Below, in pieces: positions 4,915-51,954 of a stretch of DNA of 64,000 nucleotides. The position numbers and the translations under genes are program-made. The DNA is from an uncultured Gammaproteobacteria bacterium (GTDB lineage: Bacteria; Patescibacteriota; Patescibacteriia; JACRDY01), in NCBI GenBank assembly GCA_964550465.1, contig CAZJZH010000001.1, positions 107-64,106 on the forward strand. The letters run 5' to 3'. The notes beneath the pieces are model-generated. The model saw only the letters and a program-made list of their open reading frames with translations. It did no database searches and was not told the DNA's origin. How positions within the stretch are numbered: position 1 is the stretch's first letter; the number at the start of each line of letters is the position of its first letter.

Positions 4915-4915
4915 T

Positions 4916-5791: not shown

Positions 5792-5792
5792 T

Positions 5793-6302: not shown

Positions 6303-6309
6303 TCATCCT

Positions 6310-7282: not shown

Positions 7283-7283
7283 T

Positions 7284-7952
7284 ATGGGGCTACTGATTGT
7301 CATCGACGGTACAGACGGTTCTGGCAAAGCCACGCAAACCAAGCTGCTGGTGGACCGTCTGACTGATCACGGCTGTACCGTCCAGACCATGGCCTTTCCT
7401 CAGTATGGTAAAAAATCAGCCGGACTGGTGGAAGAATACCTCAGCGGCGCTTACGGTACAGCTGATGCGGTTGATCCACGCATCGCTGCCTTCTTTTTTG
7501 CGGCTGATCGTTACGATGCCAGTTTTCAAATTCGCCAATGGCTGGATAGCGGCTGCGTGGTGGTGCTGGACCGTTATGTCTCTGCCAACATGGGTCACCA
7601 GGGCGCCAAGATTGCCGATGTCGACAAGCGCCAACGCTTCATGACCTGGATCTACCGCTTAGAACATGAATTTTTTGATATTCCGGTGCCGGATATGAAC
7701 CTCATCTTGCACGTGCCGGCAGCCGTATCACAGCAACTAGCCCAGCAGCGCAATGAAAAAGAATGGGCTGGCAAAACAAGAGATATTCACGAAGATGACG
7801 CTCAGCACCTAGCGGCAGCCGAAGCCACCTATCTGTGGATGGCCCAGCAGTACCCAGAGTTTCACTTACTCTCCTGTACGGCTGACAACCAGATGCTGCC
7901 ACGTAATGTGATTGCGGAACGGATCTGGCAGGTAGTGAAAGAAAAATTATAG
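7284..7952 (+). CDS. tmk: thymidylate kinase
   Basis: LLIVIDGTDGSGKATQ P-loop and DRY motif (VVLDRYV). The alternative upstream start is 7227. Confidence 0.88.
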   Translation: MGLLIVIDGTDGSGKATQTKLLVDRLTDHGCTVQTMAFPQYGKKSAGLVEEYLSGAYGTADAVDPRIAAFFFAADRYDASFQIRQWLDSGCVVVLDRYVSANMGHQGAKIADVDKRQRFMTWIYRLEHEFFDIPVPDMNLILHVPAAVSQQLAQQRNEKEWAGKTRDIHEDDAQHLAAAEATYLWMAQQYPEFHLLSCTADNQMLPRNVIAERIWQVVKEKL

Positions 7953-35019: not shown

Positions 35020-35721
35020 ATGGCGGAAGCAAACGTCCTGACCAACCAAACCTTGTCCAAGGGTGCTTTTCGACGTCAACAACGACAAGAGACTGCGACG
35101 GCCAATAGCCAATCTACTGCTCGTCAAGCGACAACCCAAGATCCTCAGGCTATGTCTGCTCGGCAGTACTTGCGCCAAGGACGTCGCATTCGCGCTAAAG
35201 AGCTGCGTGACAATCAAGCGAAGTCTCGACTTCGCAAAAACGCCAACGCTCTTGCCGACGTAGCAGGTGAAGTAGCAACTGCTCATTTACTAAAATTATC
35301 ATGGATTAACCTGATTGATAGCTTTGGTTTAACCCTGCTCTACATCAACTTTCACTTTGCGGCGCGGTACTTCGCTGGTAGTCGTCGTTTTTGTCAGTTT
35401 GGTATTGAGTGGTTTACTTTTGGGAAAGTAGGGGTAGCAAAGAAGGCAAAGGGGCGTGCCCGTCAGCAAGCCACCCGCAACAGTCAAGGCAAGGTGGCAG
35501 CCAGTGGCAGTCGCATTGCTGGCGCGGCCAGTAGCGCTGTGATTAAAGCTAAGAACCTAGCCAAAGTCATGGCCTCTAAGCCCATTGAACTAGCTGAAAT
35601 TATCGTCCTAGTTGTATTGGATATAATTATCGCTACGCTGTTGCTGATATCATTTTTGACGCTGATGCTACCAATTCTAGCCCCTATTGTTGGCTGGACA
35701 TTTTTGGCTAGTTATTTTTGA
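35020..35721 (+). CDS. hypothetical protein (basic N-terminus, C-terminal TM)
   Basis: 233 aa. Arg/Gln-rich N-terminal half and a hydrophobic C-terminal helix. Confidence 0.4.
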   Translation: MAEANVLTNQTLSKGAFRRQQRQETATANSQSTARQATTQDPQAMSARQYLRQGRRIRAKELRDNQAKSRLRKNANALADVAGEVATAHLLKLSWINLIDSFGLTLLYINFHFAARYFAGSRRFCQFGIEWFTFGKVGVAKKAKGRARQQATRNSQGKVAASGSRIAGAASSAVIKAKNLAKVMASKPIELAEIIVLVVLDIIIATLLLISFLTLMLPILAPIVGWTFLASYF

Positions 35722-35742: not shown

Positions 35743-36993
35743 ATGAGTGACCGCACTAAACGTATCTTGTTTATCATCGCTTTCGTGCTAGCCGCTGGGC
35801 TGTTAGCCTATGCGCTGTACTTCATACTATTTGGCGCCACCTCAACGCCAACCACGCCAACCAATCAAATCAACCAAGGTGACGATTTTTCTGGTGGCTT
35901 ACCACCAGCCAACACTGGCAGCGGTACGGTCTTGCTAAACGTCAACGGTCGACTGGTACCTTCTGACGAAGTTGACACCACTCCCCCAGCCACTTCTACT
36001 GCTAGTCCTATCGCCCGTGGTGGCACCACGCAAGTGACGCAAGTATCAACCACACCAATAGAATCAATGTACCGATCATCTGACGGTAACAACCTGGTTG
36101 GCTACAACCCAAATGACGGCAAGTTCTACAAATATAACGCTGACGGCAGCGTCACTGCCCTATCTGATGATGAATTCTTTAATGTCGATGAAGTTACCTG
36201 GGCACCGGATAGCGCTAAAGCTATTATGAAGTTCCCTGACGGCGCCACTATTTACTACAATTTCTTAACCAAAGAACAGAAGACGCTACCCAACCACTGG
36301 GAAGAATTTGACTTTTCTGACGACTCGACAAAGATCGCCTTTAAAAACATGCGCTTGGACCGCGAGAACCGTTGGCTGTCCGTAGCTAATGCTGACGGCA
36401 GCCAGGTGCGTAACATCGCGCCGGTGGGCGATAATAGTAGTAACATCTCTGTCTTGTGGTCACCAACTGGACAGGTGGTCGGGAACTACCGTCAGAGCAT
36501 GGACTTTGACCGTCAACGCTTGATCTTTATCACCACTGACGGTACCGAATTACCCGCTGTCGTACTGCAAGGGCGTGGTCTGGAGCAACAGTACAGTCCG
36601 GATGGCGAATTCCTCTTCTACAGTGTCTACTCCAGCTTTACCGACCTACAACCCAACCTGTGGTTCACCACCGCTCGTGGTGACCAGTCTGGTCTGCTGC
36701 GCGTCAACTTAGAGCTTAATACCTGGGCGGATAAATGTGCCTTCGCTGATGGTCAAACCGTCTACTGCGCCGTGCCACAGTACCTGCCGAAAGGGGCTGG
36801 GCTGGTACCAGAAGTAGCCGATAGTATTCCGGATGATTTCTACAAAATTGACTTACAATCCGGTGCCAAGACCCTGATCGCCACCACTGAAGACAGCTAC
36901 ACAGCTGAGAACATAGTGGTCAGCCAAGATGGTCGTAACTTGTTCTTTACCGACACGGCTACTGGCACCGCTCAACAGATTCGTATCCGCTAA
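35743..36993 (+). CDS. membrane-anchored beta-propeller protein (TolB/PD40-like repeats)
   Basis: N-terminal TM. Repeated W/YSPDG-like motifs (WAPDSAKA, WSPTGQVV, YSPDGEFLFY). Confidence 0.5.
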   Translation: MSDRTKRILFIIAFVLAAGLLAYALYFILFGATSTPTTPTNQINQGDDFSGGLPPANTGSGTVLLNVNGRLVPSDEVDTTPPATSTASPIARGGTTQVTQVSTTPIESMYRSSDGNNLVGYNPNDGKFYKYNADGSVTALSDDEFFNVDEVTWAPDSAKAIMKFPDGATIYYNFLTKEQKTLPNHWEEFDFSDDSTKIAFKNMRLDRENRWLSVANADGSQVRNIAPVGDNSSNISVLWSPTGQVVGNYRQSMDFDRQRLIFITTDGTELPAVVLQGRGLEQQYSPDGEFLFYSVYSSFTDLQPNLWFTTARGDQSGLLRVNLELNTWADKCAFADGQTVYCAVPQYLPKGAGLVPEVADSIPDDFYKIDLQSGAKTLIATTEDSYTAENIVVSQDGRNLFFTDTATGTAQQIRIR

Positions 36994-37002
36994 CTATTTC
37001 CC

Positions 37003-38175
37003 ATGCGCCTTCACTTCTTCCATTGGTTAATTGTCAGCTGCCTGGTTATCGGCAGTGGCCTTGTGGTCAGCGGCGTCTTGGCGCAAGACGAACAGCCTGT
37101 CAATTTACTACTGGACGAGCCAGACCTGCAAATCAATCTACCGAGCGTCAACCTGACGCCCTCCTCAGACATTAAAGCTACTGGACCACAAGGCAATCAG
37201 TACTACGCCATTCCGTGGATTGCCGAATACATCAGCGGTGCCTATCAGTTTATCATTGGTGCGGCTATTGCCCTGGCGATTATTGTTATCATTGTAGCTG
37301 GCTTCACCTGGATGACGGCCGGTGGTAATGCTGATGCAGTCAATCGAGCTAAGACTACTATCGTCGGTGCTGTCACTGGCGTACTGTTGGCTTTGGGCAG
37401 CTTTTCTATTCTCTATATTGTTAACCCAAATTTAACCAACTTAACCCCGTTACGAGTGCCAATTATTGGTCGAGTTGGACTAGGGCAATTTTGTTCACCA
37501 GAAGTCTTGCCAAACGAAACTATATACCTCATTAACGACAGAGTGGGAGAGATTAGTGGCGAAAAATTTACTGCTGGACGTAAAACCACCTGCGGGTTGT
37601 ATTACAGTAAGGGTGAAGAAATAACTAGTGGCAGTATCTGTATTGGCTCCTCTTGTGGTGGCAGCACTGCCTGCGTGCCAAATATTAATGAAGACGGCTC
37701 CATCAACGCCTACGGTGGTGCGTTACCAATACCACCATATATGCAGGTAGACTATGCCTGTCAAAACCCTGGCACGGTATGTAATAAAATTAAAGATGAC
37801 GACGTTGAGCGCTCTTTTGGTCTGGGAGAAGGTCAGCGAGTATGCGATCTTATCAATAACAGCCCTGGTGCTCGTACTGGCACTAACGGCGGTACCTGCG
37901 TCTGGGTAGACAAAGACGCTGCTCGTATTTTTGCTGGTGATGACCGATGCTACTGGTGCTCGCAGGAGCTGTACCAAAAACTAGCAGCTGATTGGGATGG
38001 TGGCTTTACTCCCGATGTTGATGAAGATGACCCTCAAACTATTTGTGAATTATTAGCGGATGAGGAAGTTGATGATTGGAGTGATATCATTAAGTACACA
38101 TCAATGGACACTATCCGTGGCCTTGATAAGTGGGAAGTTTCTGCCTGCGCCAGTGCTAAGTGTAATGGCCTATGA
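37003..38175 (+). CDS. secreted VirB2/TrbC-pilin-like two-helix protein with C-terminal Cys-rich domain (paralog 1)
   Basis: Signal peptide. The conserved core YYAIPWIAEYISGAYQFIIGAAIALAIIVIIVAGFTWMTAGGNADAVNRAKTTIVGAVTGVLLALGSFSILYIVNPN is shared with the ORFs at 38172 and 40633. The C-terminal region (about 220 aa) contains about 16 Cys. Confidence 0.5.
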   Translation: MRLHFFHWLIVSCLVIGSGLVVSGVLAQDEQPVNLLLDEPDLQINLPSVNLTPSSDIKATGPQGNQYYAIPWIAEYISGAYQFIIGAAIALAIIVIIVAGFTWMTAGGNADAVNRAKTTIVGAVTGVLLALGSFSILYIVNPNLTNLTPLRVPIIGRVGLGQFCSPEVLPNETIYLINDRVGEISGEKFTAGRKTTCGLYYSKGEEITSGSICIGSSCGGSTACVPNINEDGSINAYGGALPIPPYMQVDYACQNPGTVCNKIKDDDVERSFGLGEGQRVCDLINNSPGARTGTNGGTCVWVDKDAARIFAGDDRCYWCSQELYQKLAADWDGGFTPDVDEDDPQTICELLADEEVDDWSDIIKYTSMDTIRGLDKWEVSACASAKCNGL

Positions 38176-39485
38176 TTAAAAAAAGCCTCATTATCGCTAT
38201 CCTCTCCTTCAGTCTCCTGTCTTCCGCAGTAGCGGTACCGGTATGGGCTCAAGACGATGAGCCGGAAACTGAAGAGACTGAAACAACGGCGGATAATGAG
38301 GAAGAAGCTGGACAATGCACCCGCAAAGAAAACGACTACTTCAGTGGCTCTTGCGCTGATGCGACGGGCAGTAGTAAATGTTGCGATGGCTGCACCTGTC
38401 ACAATATTGAAAATGAGACTGGTGACATTATTGCGCACGAATGCATTAGCTGTCCACCAGAAGGGCAACGTGTACAATTAAGTATCCCAGACACACAAAT
38501 AGGCTTCCCTGACGGTGACGTTAGTTTTTCTCGTGATGTGCCATTACGTGGTCCTGAGGGTAATCAATTCTATAGCATTCCCTGGATTGCTGAGTACATC
38601 AGCTCAGCTTATCAGTTCATTATCGGTGCTGCCGTACTATTAGCTATCATCGTCATTATTATAGCCGGCTTTACTTGGATGACAGCTGGTGGTAACGGTG
38701 ATGCTGTTAAGCGAGCCAAAGAGCAAATTCTGGGTGCAGTGACAGGGGTGTTACTGGCAGTAGGTAGCTATTCTATCCTCTATATTGTCAATCCTAACTT
38801 AGTCAACCTAACACCCGTGACCGTGCCATACACGCAATACACGGAGCTTGATTTTGAAGATGAGGCGCAAGAACTGGCTGGGCTGAGCAATAGAGGGCCT
38901 GCGAATGGTTCATACCCTTCAATTGGTGGTGAATGCTTCCCATTTGCTAATGGCCCTATCCGCGGAATTGCTAACAATTTTGGGCAGCGTCGAAAATTTA
39001 AAGATGGATCTCCTCGGTGCCACGCTGGTGTAGATATTCCTACTGCAGGAAATAGGCCCGAGGATGTTGTAGCCATTGCTGATGGGAGAGTTGTCGCTGG
39101 ACCATACTCATTTCTCCCTAACTGCAAAACAGGCCCAGGGGATAGCGTAGCGCTATTAGTGCAGCACGGAGCTAATGTTGTGAACTACGGTGAATTAAAT
39201 GTTGGCACGGTGACTGTCAAAGCTGGTGATACCGTAAAAGCAGGTGATACATTAGGCACTGCCTCTAACTGTGGCATGCTGCATTTTGAACTTTACACAA
39301 GCGGAACTGCGGCTAATACAAGTTGGCCCACCCCCGACAACCAGGCTGTTGGTGATGACCCAAATTACTGTGCTAAGCACTATCTCAGCACCAAACCAAA
39401 AAACCTCTTGGATCCCACCTCAACCCTAAAGGATTTATCCTCAAAAGTATGCGCGAACGCGGGCGAAGCAACAGAGACAGAGTAA
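38172..39485 (+). CDS. secreted pilin-like two-helix protein fused to M23/LytM-like peptidase domain (paralog 2)
   Basis: Signal peptide and an N-terminal Cys-rich acidic segment. The same conserved core as paralog 1 (FYSIPWIAEYISSAYQFIIGAA...GFTWMTAGGNGDAVKRAK...). The C-terminal region (HAGVDIP...DGRVV...GMLHFELY) resembles M23 peptidases. Confidence 0.5.
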   Translation: MIKKSLIIAILSFSLLSSAVAVPVWAQDDEPETEETETTADNEEEAGQCTRKENDYFSGSCADATGSSKCCDGCTCHNIENETGDIIAHECISCPPEGQRVQLSIPDTQIGFPDGDVSFSRDVPLRGPEGNQFYSIPWIAEYISSAYQFIIGAAVLLAIIVIIIAGFTWMTAGGNGDAVKRAKEQILGAVTGVLLAVGSYSILYIVNPNLVNLTPVTVPYTQYTELDFEDEAQELAGLSNRGPANGSYPSIGGECFPFANGPIRGIANNFGQRRKFKDGSPRCHAGVDIPTAGNRPEDVVAIADGRVVAGPYSFLPNCKTGPGDSVALLVQHGANVVNYGELNVGTVTVKAGDTVKAGDTLGTASNCGMLHFELYTSGTAANTSWPTPDNQAVGDDPNYCAKHYLSTKPKNLLDPTSTLKDLSSKVCANAGEATETE

Positions 39486-40636
39486 GTAGCGCCATCTACA
39501 AGTTTCGCTGGTGGCTTTTGATAGCCCTACTACTTGCTGGCACTACCATAGCCCTACAGTACGTCGTGTCTTTTTCCAACGACCAAAATATCGCTGTTGC
39601 TCGCGTTCAATCGATCGTAGCAGAGGAAGCACAGCCTGGTATTATAAACGACGCCCAACGAGTTACTCAAACCGTTACCTTAACATTCAACACTGGTCCA
39701 CTAGCTGGTCAACAAGTGACTACTACACACGCCTATGAAACGGCTGGACCATACATTTTTATTGGTCCATTGCAGCAGAACGATTGGGTCGTGACACAAA
39801 TCAACCTCAAAACCCTGACTGGAGAGCCTTTGGTTATTGTGGTCACGCGTCTATTCTTGCTACCACTTATTCCCCTACTAGCATTATTTCTAGGGATTAT
39901 AATTTTGGTTGGACAAAAAAAGGGCTTTTTAACACTGATTAGCCTAGTGATATCAGGCTTACTCTTATTTGGCGCCGTCATACCGCTAGTCACTAAAGCT
40001 GGCTGGAACCCTATCAGCGCCATATTAGTTATCGCCGTCCCAATGACGGTTATTGATGTGTTGGTTGTTGTGGGTTGGAACAAAAAAAGCTTGGCTGCAA
40101 GTATTGGTATGCTAACAGCAGTGTTCATAACCTTTTTACTGTCCACTGGATTTGCCGCTCTAATGAAAGTACCTGGTGAGCTGGCCAACGAAGATGCTTC
40201 CCTATACTATCAAATGCCAGAAATTACCGCCGTGTCTGTTTTTTTGGCTGGGATTTTACTTGGCGCTATTGGCGCTGTTAACGATATCGCTGTATCAATT
40301 GCTGCAGCCGTTCAAGAAGTGAAGTATGTGAAGCCATCTGCAACTATAGAAGAATTGTGGTCCTCCGGCATGCGTGTAGGTAGAGATATTATCGGCACTA
40401 TGACTAATACGCTTATATTCGCTTATGTTGGGACATCACTGGTAGTGTGGCTCAGCTATGGCCAAGGAGATTATTCGCCATTTCTAGCGCTTAACGTTGC
40501 CTCCGTCAGTGAAGAACTACTCCGTTCCCTATCTAGCACTATCGGTCTGGCGGTAGCGGTGCCGGTCACTGCCTGGGCCAGCGCCTATTTGTATACCAAA
40601 AAAAAGATCGCTCCTAAAGAATCCTCCTCCACATGA
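39449..40636 (+). CDS. YibE/F-like polytopic membrane protein (tentative)
   Basis: N-terminal TM, an extracytoplasmic domain of about 110 aa, then about 8 TM helices. Overall architecture is like the YibE/F family. The start is uncertain (37-nt overlap with the upstream gene). Confidence 0.4.
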   Translation: MRERGRSNRDRVSSAIYKFRWWLLIALLLAGTTIALQYVVSFSNDQNIAVARVQSIVAEEAQPGIINDAQRVTQTVTLTFNTGPLAGQQVTTTHAYETAGPYIFIGPLQQNDWVVTQINLKTLTGEPLVIVVTRLFLLPLIPLLALFLGIIILVGQKKGFLTLISLVISGLLLFGAVIPLVTKAGWNPISAILVIAVPMTVIDVLVVVGWNKKSLAASIGMLTAVFITFLLSTGFAALMKVPGELANEDASLYYQMPEITAVSVFLAGILLGAIGAVNDIAVSIAAAVQEVKYVKPSATIEELWSSGMRVGRDIIGTMTNTLIFAYVGTSLVVWLSYGQGDYSPFLALNVASVSEELLRSLSSTIGLAVAVPVTAWASAYLYTKKKIAPKESSST

Positions 40637-41979
40637 ACCGCTTACCTTTATTAATCTGTGGCAGCATTATTAGCATCATGTTGCTCATACCCACCCTGCC
40701 AGCTGCTGCCCAGGAAGGTGAGATGTGCTGTGCCTGTACCAGTTCAGTCGATGGCCGCTCGGCAGAGTTTTACCATGACCCATACGAAGACGCTGACTCA
40801 TCTGATGAAGACCCTTGCGCTCGCTTTGAAACTGACGACGCATCAACTGAAGATGGTTTCAATATTGCTTGCGAACTACTCAATGAAGCCTGCCCAACAG
40901 CTGGTGGTGGTGACATTGACGTGGTACCACCAACAGCCCAAGTTGACATTCCCGGTTTCAACGGCTTTACCGATGAATTAGAAATTTACGGCAGTGACAC
41001 GGAACGGTTTTACACCGTGCCCTGGTTAGCTGAGTATACCCGAGCTATTTATCAGTTCGGCGTCGGTGTAGCAGTAGCCCTGGCTATTATCGTCATTATC
41101 GTTGCCGGCTTTACTTGGATGACGGCCGGCGGCAACGCTGACGCAGTCGGTCGGGCTAAAACAACTATTGTCGGAGCGGTCACTGGGCTGATTTTAGCGG
41201 TGGGCAGCTACTCTATTCTCTTTTTAGTTAACCCAAACATTGTCAACCTGACTCCGGTAGTAGTGCCAGCAGTCAATAAAACCGAACTCAATATTACCAC
41301 TATTCCGGAAGGGGTCTACACGCAGATCACCGGCAAAGCCCTCATTCGTCCCTTTGGCCCAGAAATGGAAGCGATGATGCGAACCGTAGCTGAAAAAAAT
41401 GACCATATTGATTTTTGTACGCTGCAGGCAATTTTACAGAAAGAATCCGGTGGAAATGCTAACGCCGTCGGGCATGACGAAGATGCGCCGGTGTCTGGTG
41501 TCTCCGCTCGGACAAATTTTATTAGCTCTGGCAAATACCACTCCGGCCGGAATTTTACCCCCAACGCTACCCTCAAAACTGATAGAAGCTTTGTTAATGA
41601 TGACAAAACCTGCACCACACAACTAAGTGTCAGCGAAGGTGGCTGTTCTGACCCTGACACTTTAAACCTCGACTGGCGCTATTCACACGGCATTGGCCTG
41701 GGGCAAATCACCATTTTCCCTGGCCGTTTCTGCAGTAGTAAGCCCAGTATTCAAATTGGTAGCACCTGTTATACCGTACCAATGCTACTTGATCCAGAAC
41801 AGCAGTTCCAAGCCGTGGCCGATCTATGGAAAACAAAGTGCTCTGGCGAAACCGTCAAAAAATGCTTTAAAAATTATGCCGGTAGTGGCAGCTGGGCTGA
41901 AGCTACCGCTACTCAAAAAATGGCCGTCTACCAGAAATGTGTCGGTGATGGTTTAAATAAAACGACAAACAGTGAATAA
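40633..41979 (+). CDS. secreted pilin-like two-helix protein fused to SLT-type lytic transglycosylase domain (paralog 3)
   Basis: Signal peptide and a Cys/Asp-rich N-terminal segment. Conserved core FYTVPWLAEYTRAIYQFGVGVAVALAIIVIIVAGFTWMTAGGNADAVGRAKTTIVGAVTG.... The C-terminal region carries the SLT motifs LQAILQKESGGN and HGIGLGQI. Confidence 0.5.
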   Translation: MNRLPLLICGSIISIMLLIPTLPAAAQEGEMCCACTSSVDGRSAEFYHDPYEDADSSDEDPCARFETDDASTEDGFNIACELLNEACPTAGGGDIDVVPPTAQVDIPGFNGFTDELEIYGSDTERFYTVPWLAEYTRAIYQFGVGVAVALAIIVIIVAGFTWMTAGGNADAVGRAKTTIVGAVTGLILAVGSYSILFLVNPNIVNLTPVVVPAVNKTELNITTIPEGVYTQITGKALIRPFGPEMEAMMRTVAEKNDHIDFCTLQAILQKESGGNANAVGHDEDAPVSGVSARTNFISSGKYHSGRNFTPNATLKTDRSFVNDDKTCTTQLSVSEGGCSDPDTLNLDWRYSHGIGLGQITIFPGRFCSSKPSIQIGSTCYTVPMLLDPEQQFQAVADLWKTKCSGETVKKCFKNYAGSGSWAEATATQKMAVYQKCVGDGLNKTTNSE

Positions 41980-42561: not shown

Positions 42562-42739
42562 TAGAAAAGCCGCCCCCTGTCGGGAGGGGACGGCTGTGGG
42601 TGTCGTGCCTAATGTACAACGATTCCAAGCTATGAGTAGCTGAGGTGGGAGAATCATTGTCAACACGACCGGGACTTCGTGTGTGCCGCGTACTCAGGTA
42701 TGCACATTTGACATACCTCAATACATTTAAATAGGCAAA

Positions 42740-46226: not shown

Positions 46227-46316
<90 letters not shown>

Positions 46317-46440
46317 AATTTGCTCATAAGCAAATTTGGCAGATTAAGGATTAAGATTTAGGATTAAGGGTATGTATTTGTCTTGAGTAAAAGCAAATCT
46401 CCTTAATACTCAACCTTAATCCTACGTCTGATAACAATAC

Positions 46441-46527
46441 GGAGAGGTAGCTGCCCGCGACATGACTGGCGGAGCCAGTCTGTGCGGGTCCGACCACTGC
46501 GCCGCAGGCGCAGATGGGCGGAAGTGG
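46441..46527 (+). repeat. ~87-nt repeat, copy B (1 mismatch to copy A)
   Basis: ggagaggtagctgcccgcgac...gggcggaagtgg. Direct repeat of copy A, 323 bp downstream of it. Confidence 0.5.
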
Positions 46528-46573
46528 AAAAGCACATTAACAATTACGACTATTTTCTTTTTTGCTTAACTAG

Positions 46574-46849
46574 TTGCTATACAGTACATCCACTATGTAC
46601 TATGTATACATCCTAAAAAGTAAGCGGAACGGGAAATTCTACATTGGGCTAACTTGCAATCTACCTCGACGAGTATGGCAACACAATAACGCTCATACCA
46701 AATCAACACTACACGGTATTCCTTGGCAAGTTGTGTATTACGAGGCATATTGCGATAAAAATTTAGCAAGTAAAACTGAATCATTTTACAAAACAAGTCA
46801 AGGTAGAAGGCAAATTAAAAAGAAGTTGCGATTACAAAATAACGATTAA
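46574..46849 (+). CDS. GIY-YIG nuclease superfamily protein (small, YhbQ/UPF0213-like)
   Basis: YVYILKSKRNGKFYIGLTCNLPRRVWQHN is the GIY-YIG motif. The gene is AT-rich relative to the window and its stop codon abuts tRNA-Ser(GCT). Confidence 0.55.
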   Translation: MLYSTSTMYYVYILKSKRNGKFYIGLTCNLPRRVWQHNNAHTKSTLHGIPWQVVYYEAYCDKNLASKTESFYKTSQGRRQIKKKLRLQNND

Positions 46850-46943
46850 GGAGAGGTGGCTGAGTGGTTGAAAGCGGCGGATTGCTAATCCGTTATAGGG
46901 GTATATGCTCCTATCGAGGGTTCGAATCCCTCCCTCTCCGCCA
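46850..46943 (+). tRNA. tRNA-Ser (GCT)
   Basis: GGAGAGGTGGCTGAGTGGTTGAAAGCGGCGGATTGCTAATCCG...GAGGGTTCGAATCCCTCCCTCTCCGCCA. Long variable arm. Anticodon loop tTGCTaa. CCA is encoded. Confidence 0.85.
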
Positions 46944-47541: not shown

Positions 47542-48126
47542 TTACGGTAGCAGCGTACAAACTTGCCACCAGGCGTCGATATAATCCGGTCGCTTGTTCT
47601 GATATTTGAGGTAATAGGCATGCTCCCCAAAAACTAAGCCAATGACTGGCTGGTGTACCAGCAAATACGGTGAGTCATGATTGGGGTTAATGTACACAGT
47701 CAGCTGCCCCTGAGCATCCCGCGCCAACCAAGCCCAACCACTGCCAAAGCGACCAGCAGCTGCAGCCACAAATTGTTCTTTAAAGGTATCTACAGAACCA
47801 AAGGTTTTTTTAATCTCTGCTACCAGCTGTTCATCCACCTGCTTGTCTGGCCCCATAATCTGCCAGAAGAAGCTGTGATTGACCGCTCCCCCGCCGTTAT
47901 TACGCAGCGAGGTTTTGTCCGCCTCATCCATCTGCAAGCTATCAAACTGCTGCAACAACTCCTCGACTGACTGCTCAGCCAGATCGGGATATTTTTCTAG
48001 AGTGGCATTAAGTTTGGTGATATAGCCGTTGTGATGCTTAGTATGGTGGATTTCCATGGTCTGAGCATCGATGTGTGGCTCTAGAGCATCGTAAGCGTAT
48101 GGCAGCTGTGGTAGTTCGTAGGGCAT
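47542..48126 (-). CDS. sodA: superoxide dismutase (Fe/Mn family)
   Basis: YELPQLPYAYDALEPHID...HHTKHH...DVWEHAYY-like C-terminal motif (FGEHAYYLKYQN). Confidence 0.9.
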   Translation of the reverse strand: MPYELPQLPYAYDALEPHIDAQTMEIHHTKHHNGYITKLNATLEKYPDLAEQSVEELLQQFDSLQMDEADKTSLRNNGGGAVNHSFFWQIMGPDKQVDEQLVAEIKKTFGSVDTFKEQFVAAAAGRFGSGWAWLARDAQGQLTVYINPNHDSPYLLVHQPVIGLVFGEHAYYLKYQNKRPDYIDAWWQVCTLLP

Positions 48127-48140
48127 AGTATGGGTCATTA

Positions 48141-48833
48141 TTAATTATCATCATCAGCGGTGGCTAAGGCAAATACCTCAACTCGCCGCACACCAGCCGC
48201 TTTGAGCGTAGCAGCAGCAGCGCTGAGAGTAGCGCCAGTGGTAATCACATCATCAACCAACACAACGGTGGCTGGCAATGATGCCCCTGGCACACGAAAA
48301 GCACTCTCCATGTTACGCTGTCTAGCCTGTTCAGTCAAACCAACCTGCGAGCGGGTCCAGCGCTGGCGGACCAACAATCCAGCCTTAACGATCAGCTGCC
48401 GCCTAGCGGCCAGCCAATCAGCGATGACAGCTGCTTGATTAAAGCCTCGCCAGCGTAACCGCCGTCGATGGAGCGGTAATGGCACCACTACCCCATTAAC
48501 CGGTGGTGGCTGGACACAGCTCAGTATAGCCCTGGCTTCACCAGCAAGGTACTGATACTTGACCGCGTGCCACAGTGTATTAAACAGCGGCTGATGGTAA
48601 TCAAAAGCCACCCAACAGACATCAACCGCCGCTGGTGGCTCAACCTGCCGGGCTGGTACCCTACCAATCTGCTTGAGGCAGTCTTCACAACAATACTGCC
48701 CTGCACGACGACAACCAAAGCAGCGGCGCGGAAAAATAAGGTCAATCAAAACTGGCCAGGGTATGTGCATACCTGACCAGTCTATCACTACTATGTAATC
48801 CAATCCTAAATTACAACCAGTAGGCGCCGTCAA
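48141..48833 (-). CDS. comF: ComF family protein (competence; phosphoribosyltransferase-fold)
   Basis: N-terminal Cys4 zinc finger (CFGC...CCEDC) and a PRT motif (VVLVDDVITTGATL). Confidence 0.75.
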   Translation of the reverse strand: MTAPTGCNLGLDYIVVIDWSGMHIPWPVLIDLIFPRRCFGCRRAGQYCCEDCLKQIGRVPARQVEPPAAVDVCWVAFDYHQPLFNTLWHAVKYQYLAGEARAILSCVQPPPVNGVVVPLPLHRRRLRWRGFNQAAVIADWLAARRQLIVKAGLLVRQRWTRSQVGLTEQARQRNMESAFRVPGASLPATVVLVDDVITTGATLSAAAATLKAAGVRRVEVFALATADDDN

Positions 48834-49410
48834 TCAGCCACTGATTGCCTTGTTGGATAAATTCTACCCGCATTGATTGACGGTAAATAGTTGCCTGACC
48901 ATTGACCACTTCTTCCCGCCGGGTAGACACCACTGCCTCAGCTGTACTACCGCTGACCGTCACACTGTCCACTGCCAGGGCCCGGGTAGTCACTACTTGA
49001 TCATCATCACGCTTAGCTTGCTGACTGATAAAGGTATTTGACCAGTTACGCATGGTGGTGGTCATCAGCGGCTGGATGTCACGAATGTTATTAAAATTAT
49101 TTGATGAGGAATAGGTACCAAACCGCTCGACAAACGTCCGGGCTAGTTTTTCTAGTGACACTTCTGACTGCTGCTCAGTGGTCAGTGTAGTGACTGTTTC
49201 CTTGGTTGGCTGCGTGGCTGCTGGCTCTGCTTCAATCACTAACCGACCACTAGCCGTAGCACCGTTTTCGATCACTACATCATCAGTCGGCGTCGTGTCA
49301 GCCGGTTGATTATCACCCCCACCAAAAACAAAAGCTAGAATAATAGCGATAATAACCAGTGGTACGCCCACTGCTAAACCGATCAGGACTGGTCGTGGAA
49401 TATTATTCAT
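48811..49410 (-). CDS. bitopic membrane protein (possible VirB8-like/NTF2-fold T4SS component; hypothetical)
   Basis: N-terminal TM (LIGLAVGVPLVIIAIILAFVF) followed by an extracytoplasmic domain of about 150 aa. It lies directly downstream of virB4 in the same operon. Confidence 0.4.
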   Translation of the reverse strand: MNNIPRPVLIGLAVGVPLVIIAIILAFVFGGGDNQPADTTPTDDVVIENGATASGRLVIEAEPAATQPTKETVTTLTTEQQSEVSLEKLARTFVERFGTYSSSNNFNNIRDIQPLMTTTMRNWSNTFISQQAKRDDDQVVTTRALAVDSVTVSGSTAEAVVSTRREEVVNGQATIYRQSMRVEFIQQGNQWLIDGAYWL

Positions 49411-49415
49411 AGAAA

Positions 49416-51275
49416 TTATACGTTATCGGTAGTCTGTTGATTGTCTGCAAACTCTTTCTTGGCCGCTTCAATCTCCAGCAGCTGCCGTGGGTCAGTAGTA
49501 ATCAGCTGATCTTCAGCGTATGAAGCCACCACCCGAATAGCGGCGTGCTTATTACCGGCAAAGAAAATGCCTTCACCGACAGCTGATTCTAGCAGCAAAT
49601 ACTTCTCCCCTTCTGTCAGCAGGAATGTCTCCTGGACCGTATCAATGGCAGCTGGTGACTGCTTCATCAGCATCTGTAGAGCTGAGTTGGTCACAATCGC
49701 GCGACCGTATTCTGAATGCAAAAAGTCATTAACGTCCTGGGTAATAGTAGTCACGCCCAGATAGTATTTACGTGCTCGTTTGACCAGGGCAAAGATAAAC
49801 TTGGCTGAGTCCTCATGCTGCATCAACCACCAGCCTTCATCAATCACCAACAGCCGTCGTTTCTTCTCTGAGCGAACCACGTTCCAGATGTAGTTAACCA
49901 AGTTGTAAATAGCCAACGGCCGCAGTTCGTCTTCTAGGTCACGGACCGAAAAGGCTACCAGCTGATTGTCTAGGTCGATATTGGTCGGATGGTTCAACAG
50001 CCCGGCAAAGGTGCCTTCGGTATACTTCTTCAGCCGCAGCGCTACGTCCGCACCACCTTCCATGCCTTCTAAAATATCGACAAAGTCTTGCATGATTGGC
50101 GGCTCGACATCGGCTAAATTGGCCTGTGGGGTGATGTCTTTCTTCGCATACGTTTCCAGCAGCGCTCGGTCGACCAATGAGTCTTCTTCTGAGGTCAGTG
50201 TACCAGTCATCAGTCGAACCAGACCCTTGACGGTAATAACACCGCTGCGGATGATGTCATCAGCACTGGTATCAACATCCGTTGGTCGTGGTAAGTCAAA
50301 TGGGTTGACTTTCGAGTCTGCTGATAGCGAAATATTGATATAGGTACCGCCAACTGCCTCACACAGGTGCTGATATTCCTTTTCTGGGTCAATGACAATC
50401 ACCTCAGTACCCATCATCATGCTGCGCAAAATCTCCAGCTTGACCGTATAACTCTTACCGGCACCAGACGTAGCAAAGACCACCATGTTGGCGTTTTGCA
50501 AGGAGAAGCGATCAAACAAGATCAAGCTGTTGTTGTGCCGGTTAATACCGTACATGATGCCATCATCACTGGACAATTCAAACGAGATGAATGGGAATGA
50601 CGAAGCCGCCGGCGAGGTATTCATGTTAAAGAAAATAGCCAGCTCGTCACGGCCCAACGGCAACGTTGAGGTAAAGCCTTGTGAGGCCTGATACAGCACG
50701 TTACGTGAATAGACTAAGCGTGAGCCGAAAATGTCTTCTAAATCACCGGTCAGATCGTCCAACTCTTCTTTTGAGTCGGCATAAATGGTCACATACAACG
50801 CGTACTGGAAAAAATGCTCGATGCCTTGGGTCAAGTTATCACGCAGCTCTTCGATGTCGCGCAGCGCCGTTTCTTTAATCGGGTCACGTGGCGCGCCCTT
50901 GTCGCGGTCAGCTGATAGTTCGGCCTCCAGGTTACCAGCTCGCTTCTTCAGGTCATTGAGGATCAAAGCTGACTTAACCGGATAGAAAAACATCGACACA
51001 TCAATCGGTGAAGAAAAGTTCAAAATAGGCACAAACCAGCCGATGGAAATATAGCGCGGGTAGGTAATAACAAACGACGTCCGGACATACTGACGACCGA
51101 GGCGCAAATAGGTTGACTGAACATCGTACGAAGCCGGCGCCACCAAATCTAAAATCGAAACAGTACCGGAACGGTAGCGCTTTTCTTCGGCAATCACCTG
51201 CGGCGTGACTTCAGCCTGAGCCGGTTTTTTGGCCTCGGCTGACTGCTGTTTTTTATTGTTCCCAAACAAAGCCAT
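49416..51275 (-). CDS. virB4: type IV secretion / conjugal transfer ATPase VirB4 (TrbE/CagE/TraE) family, C-terminal ATPase portion
   Basis: Walker A FATSGAGKSYT and Walker B LLVIDEGWW. The overall VirB4 ATPase-domain pattern is present. Confidence 0.85.
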   Translation of the reverse strand: MALFGNNKKQQSAEAKKPAQAEVTPQVIAEEKRYRSGTVSILDLVAPASYDVQSTYLRLGRQYVRTSFVITYPRYISIGWFVPILNFSSPIDVSMFFYPVKSALILNDLKKRAGNLEAELSADRDKGAPRDPIKETALRDIEELRDNLTQGIEHFFQYALYVTIYADSKEELDDLTGDLEDIFGSRLVYSRNVLYQASQGFTSTLPLGRDELAIFFNMNTSPAASSFPFISFELSSDDGIMYGINRHNNSLILFDRFSLQNANMVVFATSGAGKSYTVKLEILRSMMMGTEVIVIDPEKEYQHLCEAVGGTYINISLSADSKVNPFDLPRPTDVDTSADDIIRSGVITVKGLVRLMTGTLTSEEDSLVDRALLETYAKKDITPQANLADVEPPIMQDFVDILEGMEGGADVALRLKKYTEGTFAGLLNHPTNIDLDNQLVAFSVRDLEDELRPLAIYNLVNYIWNVVRSEKKRRLLVIDEGWWLMQHEDSAKFIFALVKRARKYYLGVTTITQDVNDFLHSEYGRAIVTNSALQMLMKQSPAAIDTVQETFLLTEGEKYLLLESAVGEGIFFAGNKHAAIRVVASYAEDQLITTDPRQLLEIEAAKKEFADNQQTTDNV

Positions 51276-51276
51276 A

Positions 51277-51954
51277 TTAGTTGGTTTCTGTTACATCTAC
51301 CTTGGTCATGTCACGAATCGGCTGGGTAGCAGCAGTATCTGGGTTATATGAACTATAGTACAGCTCAATCAAACTCTGCGTGTCCAGTCGCTGCGAAGTC
51401 AGCCCCACGCCCTCTAAACCAGTAATGACGTGCTCAACGCGCTGCTGCAGCTCCTTGTTGCGTGACTTAAACTTCTTGTCATTTAACTTGACCACTGAAG
51501 CTGGTGAAAATAGCTCCCCAAAGCGGGAGAAAAAGCCTTTCTGCTTATCTGACAGTGGATCATATGGCACGATGACATAAAACCGCTTACTCATAATATC
51601 TCCCAACTCAACCAGTTCCCCGATGTATTTACGGTAATCACCAATCTGCATCTTCAGCAGCTCATTGGTCTGCTCACGCTCCATCTTGCGCAGCTTCTCC
51701 AGGTATGGGGTGATGTCCATCTGCCGAGATTGCACGACGATTTGAATCGGGTAGGTAAAGGAGTTGAGGAACTGCATGTAGGCGCTGATAATGGCCTGCT
51801 GTTCGTCCTCTGATTTGAGATCAAAATTAATACTGGAGACCATCAAAATAGCCCGCAGCGTACCGTCTTTCATAATGACGGTGTCATTGCGAATCTCGTT
51901 AAAGGGCAGCACCTGCCGCGTGTTTGGTTTTTTACTGGTCTGCTTGGCTTGCAT
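51277..51954 (-). CDS. VirB4 N-terminal-domain-like protein (apparent split VirB4)
   Basis: 225 aa directly upstream of the VirB4 ATPase ORF, with a 1-nt gap. The pattern LPF..I.DG..........L.V.SINF.L.SE.EQ matches the VirB4 N-terminal domain. The two ORFs sum to about 844 aa, typical of full-length VirB4. Confidence 0.45.
   Translation of the reverse strand: MQAKQTSKKPNTRQVLPFNEIRNDTVIMKDGTLRAILMVSSINFDLKSEDEQQAIISAYMQFLNSFTYPIQIVVQSRQMDITPYLEKLRKMEREQTNELLKMQIGDYRKYIGELVELGDIMSKRFYVIVPYDPLSDKQKGFFSRFGELFSPASVVKLNDKKFKSRNKELQQRVEHVITGLEGVGLTSQRLDTQSLIELYYSSYNPDTAATQPIRDMTKVDVTETN

What the first reader, a model, noticed from the sequence alone, without database searches (positions are those of the whole stretch)
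37003..41979. Three paralogous secreted proteins sharing a VirB2-pilin-like two-helix core, each fused to a different cell-wall-remodelling or Cys-rich domain
The ORFs at 37003, 38172 and 40633 share a highly conserved segment of about 90 aa: PWIAEYI..AYQF.IG.A..LAIIVII.AGFTWMTAGGN.DAV.RAK..I.GAVTG..LA.GS.SIL..VNPN.VNLTP. It consists of two hydrophobic helices separated by a short loop, which is the topology and approximate spacing of VirB2/TrbC pilins (compare the ...ISWMFG...LVAGVVGG... segment of Agrobacterium VirB2). The C-terminal domains differ. Paralog 2 carries an M23/LytM-like peptidase (HAGVDI...HFELY). Paralog 3 carries an SLT lytic transglycosylase (ESGGN...GLGQI). Paralog 1 carries a Cys-rich domain of about 220 aa. 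M23, SLT and a Cys-nucleophile domain are the three hydrolase modules of PrgK-type T4SS cell-wall hydrolases. Here the modules are distributed over three paralogs anchored by a pilin-like module, which looks like an undescribed architecture. A YibE/F-like membrane protein is inserted between paralogs 2 and 3.
Basis: partly seen in the sequence, partly recalled or inferred. Interest (0 to 1): 0.85.

Follow-up and report, generated by a model that had tools for sequence, protein, structure and literature searches.

The report
Pilin-like hairpin fused to wall enzymes
Three neighbouring genes of an uncultured ultrasmall (Patescibacteria-type) bacterium each fuse the membrane hairpin of a type IV secretion pilin to a different outward-facing domain, two of them cell-wall-cutting enzymes; this architecture proves common in that group, lies next to its secretion machine, and I found no description of it in the papers I could search.

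Summary
ORFs 37003-38175, 38172-39485 and 40633-41979 share a 98-aa core (66-78% identical) and nothing else, with a YibE/F gene between the second and third. The core belongs to Pfam PF18895 (T4SS_pilin, TrbC/VirB2-related). The three window proteins score just below the curated cut-off, but 104 of their 115 closest relatives match. Cargo: P2 carries an M23 peptidase with its zinc ligands intact and one catalytic His replaced by Met. P3 carries a divergent SLT/GH23-like lysozyme domain, supported only by several weak lines. P1 carries a disulfide-rich domain with no histidine, so it is not a Cys-His hydrolase. A monoderm-type T4SS cluster (PrgI, TrsD-like, VirB4) lies 7.4 kb away and directly abuts such genes in one relative. 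The fusion is widespread: the core profile finds 22,238 clusters, with cargoes including SLT, amidase, M15, NlpC/P60, M23, 3D and giant adhesin-like proteins. Cargo varies at one conserved locus. Cores cluster by genome, while some cargoes recur across genomes. Best reading: a VirB2-VirB1 fusion in which the hairpin docks to, or assembles with, the T4SS. This is a new variant of known Patescibacteria pilin arrays.

The parts
35020..35721 (+). 233-aa protein with a basic N-terminal region and two C-terminal hydrophobic segments. It heads the conserved block.
   Evidence: No Pfam or NCBIfam match. Hydropathy. Homologues sit at the same position in L007, L012 and L017.
35743..36993 (+). 416-aa protein with an N-terminal membrane anchor and a TolB-like beta-propeller. 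It is the conserved upstream partner of the array.
   Evidence: NCBIfam TolB propeller, 24 bits, weak. One N-terminal TM segment. A homologue lies within about 1 kb of the long pilin-like genes in 11 of the 12 RecG-syntenic ('class A') loci of at least 12 kb and upstream of them in all but L003, where it lies between the two.
37003..38175 (+). P1: signal peptide (aa 1-28), short N-terminal region, pilin-like hairpin, and a disulfide-rich C-terminal domain of unknown fold (aa 156-390).
   Evidence: An identical protein is on record (P0001).
37174..37467 (+). P1 shared core (aa 58-155): IPWIAEY motif, TM1, GGN..RAK loop, TM2, NPNLTNLTP motif.
   Evidence: A2. PF18895 at 17.6 bits, E 0.0041. Family HMM E 4e-34.
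38172..39485 (+). P2: signal peptide, acidic N-terminal region with 8 Cys, pilin-like hairpin, C-terminal M23 domain. Its start overlaps the P1 stop by 4 nt.
38541..38834 (+). P2 shared core (aa 124-221).
   Evidence: PF18895 at 22.9 bits, E 9e-5, and TrbC at 17 bits. Family HMM E 2e-34.
39018..39317 (+). P2 Peptidase_M23 domain (aa 283-382). H284 and D288 form HxxxD and H371 is present, but the position of the first His of the canonical HxH is Met369.
   Evidence: PF01551 at 38.2 bits against a cut-off of 28.7. Subfamily alignment A9. Residue numbers.
39449..40636 (+). YibE/F-family polytopic membrane protein inside the array. The called ORF overlaps both neighbouring ORFs.
   Evidence: PF07907, E 9.7e-62. 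Not detected among the ORFs of the other RecG-syntenic loci.
40633..41979 (+). P3: signal peptide, acidic N-terminal region with 6 Cys, pilin-like hairpin, divergent SLT/GH23-like C-terminal domain.
40981..41274 (+). P3 shared core (aa 117-214).
   Evidence: PF18895 at 24.0 bits, E 4.1e-5. Family HMM E 1.7e-33.
41350..41952 (+). P3 lysozyme-like domain: candidate catalytic E271 (KES), an insertion of about 70 aa, then GLGQIT (355-360) and NYAGSG (414-419).
   Evidence: A4 and A6. The profile's best PDB hits are goose lysozyme and MltE at the Glu motif, E 0.35-1.7. hhalign against the SLT domains of relatives gives 82% probability, E 1e-5. The top 8 Foldseek hits are MltE, MltC and MltF, but with E 0.8-3.4 on a low-confidence model.
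48811..49410 (-). 199-aa membrane-anchored protein next to VirB4, a conserved component of the T4SS cluster. Whether it is VirB8-like was not tested.
   Evidence: Homologues adjoin VirB4 in L003, L017 and L019. No Pfam hit.
49416..51275 (-). VirB4-type T4SS ATPase.
   Evidence: PF19044 P-loop_TraG, E 4e-29, and AAA_10.
51277..51954 (-). TrsD-like protein, resembling the N-terminal part of VirB4.
   Evidence: TraC_F_IV at 25.7 bits. A TrsD-VirB4 pairing is described as typical of Patescibacteria (PMC12102498).
51958..52419 (-). PrgI/VirB3-like protein.
   Evidence: PF12666 at 30.6 bits, above the cut-off.
55124..57997 (-). 957-aa protein whose N-terminal third reads as strongly hydrophobic, so probably polytopic. 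It is a VirB6-like candidate by position only.
   Evidence: Sequence; no hydropathy or TM prediction was run on it. No profile hit.

Best explanation
The three genes encode bitopic envelope proteins of a Patescibacteria-type bacterium. After removal of a Sec signal peptide, a VirB2/TrbC-type helical hairpin (PF18895) sits in the cytoplasmic membrane with its short basic loop inside. Both flanking regions face outward. The variable C-terminal cargo is therefore held in the cell-wall zone.

The cargoes are an M23-type metallopeptidase (P2), a divergent GH23/SLT-type muramidase (P3) and a disulfide-rich module that is probably non-enzymatic, perhaps a binding module (P1).

The hairpin is more than a generic anchor. 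It is the module by which T4SS pilins dock to and assemble at the VirB4/VirB3/VirB6 machine. The proteins are in effect VirB2-VirB1 fusions. They bring wall-remodelling activities to the nearby monoderm-type T4SS, either as membrane-resident partners of the channel or as subunits incorporated into its pilus-like structure. They work together with the conserved TolB-like propeller encoded just upstream.

Shown: the homology of the hairpin, the M23 assignment, the topology elements, the conserved locus, the T4SS proximity, the variability of the cargo, and the within-genome similarity of the hairpins.

Inferred: docking or assembly at the T4SS, enzymatic activity, and the target wall (own or host).
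For: Hairpin homology.
- PF18895 and TrbC hits.
- 104 of 115 nearest relatives match PF18895, with a best E of 2.9e-71; 4 also match TrbC.
- An HMM built from the long forms detects the short pilins of classical 5-12-gene arrays. Five sampled short pilins score 34-47 bits on PF18895, and one exceeds the TrbC cut-off.

Topology.
- Signal peptide plus two TM segments with an R/K loop.
- An even count of 14 Cys in each mature protein, all outside the hairpin.

Link to the T4SS.
- PrgI, TrsD and VirB4 lie 7.4 kb away in the window.
- In L003 the order is PrgI-TrsD-VirB4-p199-pilin355-TolB-like-pilin472(SLT), without interruption.
- L017 and L019 repeat the window's arrangement.
- No short pilin is present anywhere in the 64 kb.

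Fusion logic.
- In Southlakia epibionticum, short PF18895 pilins and separate lysozyme/peptidase genes sit in one T4SS cluster. The paper reports the cluster and its pilins as essential, and a second paper says the same of the two hydrolases (PMC10633639; PMC12102498).
- Here the two functions are joined in one chain.
- Relatives carry core + M23 + SLT, as PrgK-type hydrolases do.

Constraint on the hairpin.
- 66-78% amino-acid identity with saturated third codon positions.
- Cores cluster by genome: 20 of 24 have their nearest neighbour in the same locus. Bootstrap support is 89 for the window and 100 for L001, L003 and L021.
- By contrast, the P1-type cargo recurs in L007, L010, L013, L015 and L017, the M23 cargo in L010/P0025, and a P3-type cargo in L035.
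- This pattern is expected if the hairpins of one cell must fit each other or a common partner.
Against: - None of the three window proteins reaches the PF18895 gathering score (17.6, 22.9 and 24.0 against 26.6).
- No pilin is found by sequence in the PDB with the family profile. Fold searches of the hairpin return only generic helical hairpins.
- The genes are not inside the T4SS operon. They follow housekeeping genes (LemA, HtpX, ClpC) in a co-directional run with no strong internal terminator found.
- The range of cargoes (LT, amidase, M15, M23, NlpC/P60, 3D) is also what a set of housekeeping autolysins would look like.
- P2 lacks one canonical catalytic His. P3's assignment rests on weak scores.
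- Only a few loci reach far enough to show VirB4, so the association has not been quantified.
Confidence: 0.55

Rival explanations
1. Housekeeping autolysins on a generic anchor. In these reduced genomes the PF18895 hairpin is simply the lineage's usual membrane anchor for extracytoplasmic proteins. P2, P3 and their relatives would be the ordinary enzymes of wall growth and division, with no functional tie to the T4SS.
For: - The locus lies among housekeeping genes, downstream of ClpC and upstream of a DNA glycosylase and RecG, in conserved chromosomal synteny.
- The cargoes together cover the standard classes of autolysin.
- The same hairpin also carries giant adhesin-like proteins, which suggests a general-purpose anchor.
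- The published survey found classical VirB1 homologues only weakly associated with VirB4 in most Patescibacteria classes (PMC12102498).
Against: - The hairpin is homologous to T4SS pilins, not to a generic TM segment.
- L003 places the genes directly after VirB4-p199.
- The hairpins are held at 66-78% identity and cluster by genome. A passive anchor would not need this, although neutral gene conversion could mimic it.
- P1, the paralog found in the most related loci (first after the TolB-like gene in five of them), has no enzyme signature.
Confidence: 0.2
2. Pilus-displayed or T4SS-delivered weapons. The hairpins co-polymerise into the T4SS pilus, or are handed over by it, so that variable wall-degrading and binding cargoes are presented to the host bacterium. 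They open its peptidoglycan for attachment and nutrient uptake. The locus would be a polymorphic arsenal that tracks host wall chemistry.
For: - Cargo differs between relatives at the same locus: SLT, amidase_2, M15_4, 3D, M23 and unknown domains.
- The hairpin is conserved and homogenised within genomes, much as minor and major pilins share an assembly helix.
- The giant proteins with this hairpin carry lectin- and Ig-like domains.
- Both termini of the hairpin face outward. To my knowledge they are also surface-exposed in solved conjugative pili.
- No short pilin accompanies the T4SS in this window.
- The Patescibacteria T4SS and its pilins are essential for epibiotic growth, with function unknown (PMC10633639; PMC12857230).
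Against: - There is no evidence of polymerisation.
- Cargoes of 175-235 aa, up to about 3,400 aa in relatives, on every subunit would crowd a VirB2-type filament.
- No immunity-like small genes lie in the array; the ORFs abut or overlap.
- The variable parts include the N-terminal region as well, unlike classical polymorphic toxins.
- The host of this organism is unknown.
Confidence: 0.2
3. Pro-pilins. The conserved NPxLVxLxP motif after the second helix is a processing site. The cargo would be cleaved off, leaving an ordinary short pilin for the pilus and releasing a soluble enzyme.
For: - The motif at the hairpin/cargo junction is almost invariant across the family: N141, P142 and L144 are at least 90% conserved.
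- To my knowledge, TrbC and VirB2 pilins undergo C-terminal processing.
Against: - No protease gene is associated with the locus in the window.
- The motif could equally be a structural cap of the helix.
- The N-terminal extensions of 30-95 aa would remain attached.
- Nothing here tests cleavage.
Confidence: 0.05

Closest known systems
VirB2-like pilin arrays of Patescibacteria T4SSs (PF18895). Described in Saccharibacteria (Wang et al. 2023, PMC10633639) and phylum-wide (Quinonero-Coronel et al. 2025, PMC12102498).
   Same: - Same Pfam family for the hairpin.
- Signal peptide followed by two helices.
- Several paralogs in tandem, sometimes interrupted by one non-pilin gene.
- Located within 20 genes of a monoderm-type VirB4/TrsD/PrgI cluster.
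- P2 and P3 meet the criteria that study used (E < 0.001, more than 50% profile coverage); P1 does not.
   Different: - Published arrays consist of small pilins; those seen here in class B loci and in S. epibionticum are roughly 100-220 aa. Paralogs there average 25% identity, with a maximum of 54%.
- The window proteins are 390-448 aa, with N-terminal and large C-terminal extracytoplasmic domains.
- Their hairpins are 66-78% identical.
- The fusion to enzymes is not mentioned in those papers or in the supplement I could read.
VirB1-like multidomain peptidoglycan hydrolases of Gram-positive T4SSs: PrgK of pCF10 (LytM + SLT + CHAP) and TraG of pIP501 (SLT + CHAP).
   Same: - Membrane-anchored, outward-facing M23/LytM and SLT modules associated with a monoderm T4SS.
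- Relatives P0121, P0056 and P0076 even combine M23 and SLT in one chain.
   Different: - To my knowledge the anchor there is a single N-terminal TM segment. Here it is a pilin-type hairpin preceded by a signal peptide.
- In the window the modules are split over paralogs.
- No CHAP equivalent is present (P1 has no His).
- The genes lie outside the core T4SS operon.
TrbC/VirB2/TraA conjugative pilins of diderm bacteria (PF04956).
   Same: - Cleaved leader and two hydrophobic helices around a short basic loop.
- Both ends on the outer side of the membrane.
- Weak direct profile similarity (P2 17 bits). Family members reach E 9.8e-14.
   Different: - Those pilins have no extra domains and, in some cases, are cyclised or acetylated.
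- Polymerisation with bound phospholipid is shown for them and untested here.
- The host here is a monoderm-type organism without an outer-membrane core complex.
Type IV pilus (T4P) major and minor pilins, as an analogy only.
   Same: A conserved hydrophobic assembly module is shared by paralogs of one cell, while the outward domains differ. Some minor pilins carry large functional domains.
   Different: The fold and the machine (PilB/PilC) are unrelated, and there is no homology.

Membership tests
PF18895 T4SS_pilin (TrbC/VirB2-related) | Profile match at or above Pfam's gathering score (26.6 bits). | tested here: not met
   The three window proteins score 17.6, 22.9 and 24.0 bits, E 4e-3 to 4e-5, all below the cut-off. 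At family level the link is firm. 104 of 115 nearest relatives match at E < 1e-3. Close homologues exceed the cut-off: P0028 31.2, P0120 35.1, P0104 36.2.
PF18895 T4SS_pilin (TrbC/VirB2-related) | Leader peptide followed by two hydrophobic helices joined by a short, positively charged loop. | tested here: met
   Hydropathy peaks at aa 83-101 and 119-137 in P1, with equivalents in P2 and P3. The loop is GGNxDAVxRAK. The leader ends in AQ followed by D/E. AF2 models give helix-loop-helix at 71-105/110-140 (P1) and 130-164/169-199 (P3).
PF18895 T4SS_pilin (TrbC/VirB2-related) | Small stand-alone protein with no other domain. | tested here: not met
   The proteins are 390-448 aa, with 175-235 aa C-terminal domains and 30-95 aa N-terminal regions.
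PF18895 T4SS_pilin (TrbC/VirB2-related) | Encoded near virB4 and other T4SS genes. | tested here: met
   VirB4 lies 7.4 kb downstream of P3, with TrsD-like and PrgI beside it. The genes are contiguous with VirB4 in L003.
PF18895 T4SS_pilin (TrbC/VirB2-related) | Polymerises into a pilus. | not testable with these tools
   No multimer modelling or experiment was available.
Peptidase_M23 (P2) | Profile match above the gathering score. | tested here: met
   38.2 bits against 28.7, over aa 283-382. PHROG peptidase and endolysin families also hit.
Peptidase_M23 (P2) | HxxxD and HxH zinc/catalytic motifs. | tested here: inconclusive
   H284 and D288 are present and H371 is present. The first His of HxH is Met369 in P2 and in all four subfamily relatives. 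The zinc ligands appear to be retained. One catalytic His is missing, so activity is uncertain.
SLT / GH23 lytic transglycosylase (P3) | Profile match above the gathering score. | tested here: not met
   P3 gives no hit at E < 0.1. Homologue P0028 scores 19.8 bits against a cut-off of 21.3.
SLT / GH23 lytic transglycosylase (P3) | Catalytic Glu-Ser motif, then GLxQ, then AYNxG. | tested here: met
   E271 is invariant across the six-sequence subfamily, within KES in P3 and in the subfamily consensus. GLGQIT is at 355-360, with G355 and Q358 invariant. NYAGSG is at 414-419, where two of the homologues read AYNxG. An insertion of about 70 aa lies between the first two motifs.
SLT / GH23 lytic transglycosylase (P3) | Lysozyme-like fold. 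| tested here: inconclusive
   The model is poor (mean pLDDT 49.7). The top 8 Foldseek PDB hits are MltE, MltC and MltF, but at E 0.8-3.4. hhalign against the SLT domains of relatives gives 82% probability, E 1e-5, over 39 columns. The profile's best PDB hits are goose lysozyme and MltE at E 0.35-1.7.
CHAP / NlpC-P60 Cys-His hydrolases (P1 C-terminal domain) | Catalytic Cys plus His. | tested here: not met
   P1's only two His residues are in the leader (H4, H7). There is no invariant His in the six-sequence family. No Pfam, PDB-sequence or fold match was found.
PrgK/TraG-type VirB1-like T4SS hydrolases | Several wall-hydrolase domains in one membrane-anchored chain, encoded within the T4SS operon. 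| tested here: not met
   In the window there is one cargo per chain, and the genes lie 7.4 kb from VirB4. Relatives with M23 + SLT in one chain exist.
YibE/F (ORF 39449-40636) | Profile match above the gathering score. | tested here: met
   209 bits, E 9.7e-62.

The most novel reading that the evidence does not exclude
The T4SS pilin hairpin of Patescibacteria is a general display module. Hairpins of one cell co-assemble on the T4SS into a heteropolymeric filament or stalk. That structure carries wall-cutting enzymes, a disulfide-rich binding module and, in other lineages, giant lectin/Ig adhesins. The essential but unexplained T4SS of these epibionts would then be in part a device for presenting a host-matched, exchangeable arsenal that opens the host cell wall.
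Probability: 0.2. Interest if true: 0.85.

Novelty: new variant of a known kind. Interest (0 to 1): 0.6.

Why it matters
The T4SS of Patescibacteria and its pilins are essential for epibiotic growth in the one species tested, yet reviews call its role unknown (PMC11665869, PMC12857230).

A natural fusion of the pilin module to peptidoglycan hydrolases is a 'Rosetta stone' link between two components that Saccharibacteria encode separately in the same cluster. It ties wall breaching to the pilin module.

It also yields concrete experiments:
- Are these proteins in the filament?
- Whose wall do they cut?

Two further observations would interest people working on secretion systems and on the biology of ultrasmall bacteria. 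Cargo is swapped at a conserved locus while the hairpins stay matched within each genome. The same hairpin heads giant adhesin-like proteins. Together these suggest a modular display system.

It also matters for annotation. Counts of 'VirB2 pilins' based on PF18895 include many proteins that are in fact large enzymes or adhesins.

Tried and rejected
- Word-indexed homologue searches were almost useless for this lineage. The core and the P3 C-terminus returned nothing, and the P1 C-terminus returned only itself.
A 14-sequence core alignment worked.
- The first hhalign of the P3 domain against SLT domains gave 98.8%, but the template was contaminated by P3's own subfamily. The clean rerun gave 82%, and I cite only that value.
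- AF2 of P3 with 6 sequences gave a poor model (pLDDT 49.7).
The afdb50 library was unavailable.
- The family profile against PDB sequences gave no hits.
- Phage origin (a holin-endolysin-like fusion) is rejected. There are only M23 hits in PHROGs, no phage genes nearby, and conserved chromosomal synteny.
- Recent duplication or gene conversion as the cause of core similarity is rejected for the window, because third codon positions are saturated.
- 'Split VirB4' is rejected in favour of the published TrsD + VirB4 pair.
- The organism's name could not be obtained. The contig is a 64,168-nt NCBI record without a title in the tools. The Patescibacteria assignment is by relatives and gene content.

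Full report
**1. What is there**

The + strand carries a tight run of genes:
- a 233-aa membrane protein (35020-35721)
- a 416-aa membrane-anchored TolB-like propeller (35743-36993)
- P1 (37003-38175, 390 aa)
- P2 (38172-39485, 437 aa)
- a YibE/F membrane protein (39449-40636; PF07907, E 9.7e-62)
- P3 (40633-41979, 448 aa)
- a methylpurine DNA glycosylase

P1/P2 and YibE-F/P3 overlap by 4 nt. A strong hairpin follows the glycosylase at 42568-42595.

P1, P2 and P3 align only over one 98-aa block. That block is 78% identical between P1 and P2 and 66% for both pairs with P3, with 59 invariant columns. A six-frame scan of the window with a family HMM finds these three ORFs at E of about 1e-34 and nothing else. 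Third codon positions in the block are only 39-47% identical. The copies are therefore old and held together by selection on the protein.

**2. Anatomy**

Each protein begins with a signal-peptide-like segment ending in AQ followed by D/E. An outward-facing N-terminal region follows: short in P1, and acidic with 8 or 6 Cys in P2 and P3. The order after that is:
- the motif (Y)xIPW(I/L)AEY
- a very hydrophobic helix
- the loop GGNxDAVxRAK
- a second helix
- the motif VNPN(L/I)xNLTP
- the cargo

With the leader removed, the positive loop lies inside and both flanks lie outside. This fits the cargo types and the even count of 14 Cys in each mature protein. The AF2 models show the helix-loop-helix.

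**3. The core is a T4SS pilin module**

- Pfam gives PF18895 T4SS_pilin for all three, at 17.6, 22.9 and 24.0 bits against a cut-off of 26.6. P2 also hits TrbC/VirB2.
- NCBIfam gives weak hits to a mycoplasma 'pilin-like conjugal transfer protein'.
- A profile of the three cores, run against 1.84 billion representative proteins, finds 22,238 clusters at E <= 1e-3 and 3,959 at E <= 1e-10.
- Of the 115 best hits, 104 match PF18895 (best E 2.9e-71), 4 match TrbC and 2 match DUF6112.
- An HMM built from these long forms also picks up classical arrays of 5-12 short pilins in other loci. Five sampled short pilins score 34-47 bits on PF18895, and one exceeds the TrbC cut-off.

Family membership of the hairpin is therefore well supported, even though the window copies fall just under the curated threshold. 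The family profile finds nothing by sequence in the PDB. Fold searches of the hairpin are uninformative.

**4. The cargoes**

*P2.* Peptidase_M23 scores 38.2 bits, above the cut-off. H284 and D288 (HxxxD) and H371 are present. The first His of the canonical HxH is Met369, in P2 and in all four subfamily relatives. The domain probably still binds zinc, but catalytic competence is uncertain.

*P3.* There is no Pfam hit. Several weak lines agree instead:
- The six-member subfamily keeps an invariant Glu (E271, within KES in P3 and in the consensus), GLGQIT, and (A)Y(N)xG, the hallmark motifs of family-1 lytic transglycosylases. An insertion of about 70 aa lies between the first two.
- Its profile's best PDB hits are goose lysozyme and MltE at the catalytic Glu, E 0.35-1.7.
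- hhalign against the SLT domains of other family members gives 82% probability, E 1e-5. An earlier 98.8% came from a contaminated template and is discarded.
- The eight best Foldseek hits of a poor model are MltE, MltC and MltF at E 0.8-3.4.
- Homologue P0028 scores 19.8 bits on SLT against a cut-off of 21.3.

I read this as a divergent GH23/SLT-like domain, with moderate confidence.

**5. Context**

The window is chromosomal, with ribosomal protein L1, GatB, DnaE, PheST, ThrRS, RecG and ClpC among others. It looks like a Patescibacteria genome. It carries DUF5667 and DUF5673 proteins, and its closest loci by the core are labelled Magasanikiibacteriota, Patescibacteria and Komeilibacteria.

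On the minus strand, 7.4 kb from P3, lies a monoderm-type T4SS cluster:
- a 199-aa anchored protein
- VirB4 (PF19044, E 4e-29)
- a TrsD-like protein
- PrgI/VirB3
- two unknown proteins
- a 957-aa protein with a strongly hydrophobic N-terminal third
- a 1,926-aa Cys-rich protein

The TrsD + VirB4 + PrgI set is the published signature of Patescibacteria T4SSs (PMC12102498).

**6. Relatives**

Eighty metagenome loci, five genome loci and six loci fetched through individual homologues were examined, 91 in all. Forty of these are at least 12 kb long. They fall into three classes.

*Class A.* These are the window's kind: TolB-like, then 1-4 long fusions of 330-600 aa, then RecG further on.
- The TolB-like gene lies within about 1 kb of the fusions in 11 of 12 such loci, and upstream of them in all but L003.
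- p199-VirB4 lies beyond RecG in L017 and L019.
- L003 is contiguous: PrgI-TrsD-VirB4-p199-fusion(355 aa)-TolB-like-fusion(472 aa, SLT).

*Class B.* Arrays of 5-12 short pilins, as published.

*Class C.* Proteins of about 580-3,465 aa that start with a PF18895 hairpin. The two scanned (3,465 and 2,027 aa; hairpin 46 bits) continue with Laminin_G_3, LTD, Big_5 or TIG domains.

At the class A locus the cargo differs from genome to genome:
- L007: P1-type plus a second fusion, P0004-like with a 3D-type C-terminus read from sequence only (the gene list shows no Pfam hit for it)
- L017: P1-type + unknown + M15_4 + 3D
- L019: SLT
- L021: M23 + unknown
- L023: amidase_2
- L029: unknown + SLT

Among the 115 best family members, Pfam sees SLT (18), Amidase_2 (6), M15_4 (4), C39_2 (4), NlpC/P60 (4), M23 (3), VanY (3), 3D (2), glucosaminidase (1) and GDSL (1). 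Three proteins carry hairpin + M23 + SLT. The P1-type gene is the first after the TolB-like gene in L007, L010, L013, L015 and L017.

**7. Hairpins evolve in concert, cargoes do not**

In a neighbour-joining tree of class A hairpins, paralogs group by genome:
- 20 of 24 have their nearest neighbour in the same locus.
- Bootstrap support for locus monophyly is 89 for the window, 100 for L001, L003 and L021, 89 for L017 and 80 for L029.

Yet some cargoes recur across genomes. The P1-type domain is found in five other loci, the M23 domain in L010/P0025, and a P3-type domain in L035. The P1 and P2 hairpins (78%) are more alike than P1 and its cargo-orthologue in the sister genome (72%).

Either the hairpins are homogenised by old gene conversion, or they co-evolve. 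Both point to a requirement that the hairpins of one cell match each other or a shared partner. A passive anchor would not impose that requirement. The tree rests on about 95 columns and should be repeated with more genomes.

**8. Mechanism**

The best-supported reading (0.55) is a VirB2-VirB1 fusion. The pilin hairpin targets wall-remodelling and binding modules to the T4SS. It does so either by docking in the membrane next to the channel or by incorporation into its pilus-like structure.

The fusion logic is strengthened by Southlakia epibionticum. There, short PF18895 pilins (SEML1_0014-0019) and separate lysozyme/peptidase genes (SEML1_0006 and 0007) sit in one T4SS cluster beside VirB4, a TrsD-like protein and PrgI. 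The cluster and its pilins are reported as essential (PMC10633639), as are the two hydrolases (PMC12102498).

Rivals:
- Housekeeping autolysins on a generic anchor (0.2).
- Pilus-displayed or delivered weapons against the host wall (0.2). This is the most novel reading and is compatible with the variable cargo and the giant adhesin fusions.
- Pro-pilins cleaved at the NPxLVxLxP junction (0.05).

**9. Known or new**

Patescibacteria T4SSs and their VirB2-like arrays are published (PMC10633639, PMC12102498, PMC12857230). P2 and P3 meet the PF18895 criteria used in that survey, so they would have been counted as pilins.

The following do not appear in those papers, in the supplement I could read, or in full-text searches:
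- the fusion of the hairpin to peptidoglycan hydrolases
- its abundance
- the conserved TolB-like partner
- the cargo variability at one locus
- the within-genome matching of hairpins
- the giant adhesin fusions

The library is incomplete, so 'undescribed' is provisional. I rate this a new variant of a known kind, with interest 0.6.

Noticed in passing
L065:9785-20167, L068:9779-20173, L070:9851-16582, L080:3565-9645, L090, L091: Proteins of about 580 to 3,465 aa begin with a PF18895 pilin hairpin. The two I scanned (L068, 3,465 aa; L080, 2,027 aa; hairpin 46 bits, above the cut-off) continue with adhesin-type domains: Laminin_G_3, Lamin tail, Big_5 or TIG. Often two such genes lie in tandem. 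The pilin module therefore also heads giant surface proteins.
   Followed up: partly
window 35743-36993 (and L001, L003, L007, L012, L017, L019-L021, L023, L026, L029, L035): A membrane-anchored TolB-like beta-propeller protein lies within about 1 kb of the long pilin-hydrolase genes in 11 of the 12 syntenic loci and is present upstream in the twelfth. In L003 it sits between two of them, directly after VirB4-p199. Its role is unknown, and it is not listed among known T4SS components.
   Followed up: partly
window 58004-63784 (-): A 1,926-aa, very Cys-rich protein without any Pfam or NCBIfam match ends the T4SS cluster, next to the 957-aa VirB6-like candidate. It has no pilin hairpin. It may be an adhesin or a substrate.
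   Followed up: no
window 51277-51954 and 49416-51275 (-): What looks like a VirB4 split in two is the TrsD-like + VirB4 pair, which the literature reports as the commonest T4SS signature in Patescibacteria.
   Followed up: yes
window 46227-46943: A 91-aa GIY-YIG domain protein (46574-46849; PF01541, E 3.4e-13) sits between two tRNA-Ser genes (46227-46316 and 46850-46943), ending one base before the second.
   Followed up: no
window 48141-48833 (-): A ComF-like phosphoribosyltransferase with a double zinc ribbon lies immediately next to the T4SS cluster and overlaps the 199-aa gene. It is a competence-type gene beside a T4SS.
   Followed up: no
window 47542-48138 (-): An Fe/Mn superoxide dismutase is present in what appears to be a Patescibacteria genome. 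These organisms are usually described as fermentative anaerobes.
   Followed up: no
L002 and L005 (genome contigs): Two contigs labelled 'uncultured Gammaproteobacteria' MAGs carry Patescibacteria-type PF18895 genes. L005 has an array of 8. These are probably binning or labelling errors.
   Followed up: no
window 38253-38540 and 40714-40980; also P0004, P0006, P0012: Several family members share a small N-terminal Cys motif (CCxC ... C ... C) in an acidic region upstream of the hairpin. This is a second outward-facing mini-domain of unknown role.
   Followed up: no
window 4399-7952: There is a compact deoxynucleotide cluster: dCMP deaminase, ThyA, a DHFR/RibD_C-like protein, a P-loop kinase and thymidylate kinase. 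This is notable for a lineage usually said to lack nucleotide synthesis.
   Followed up: no
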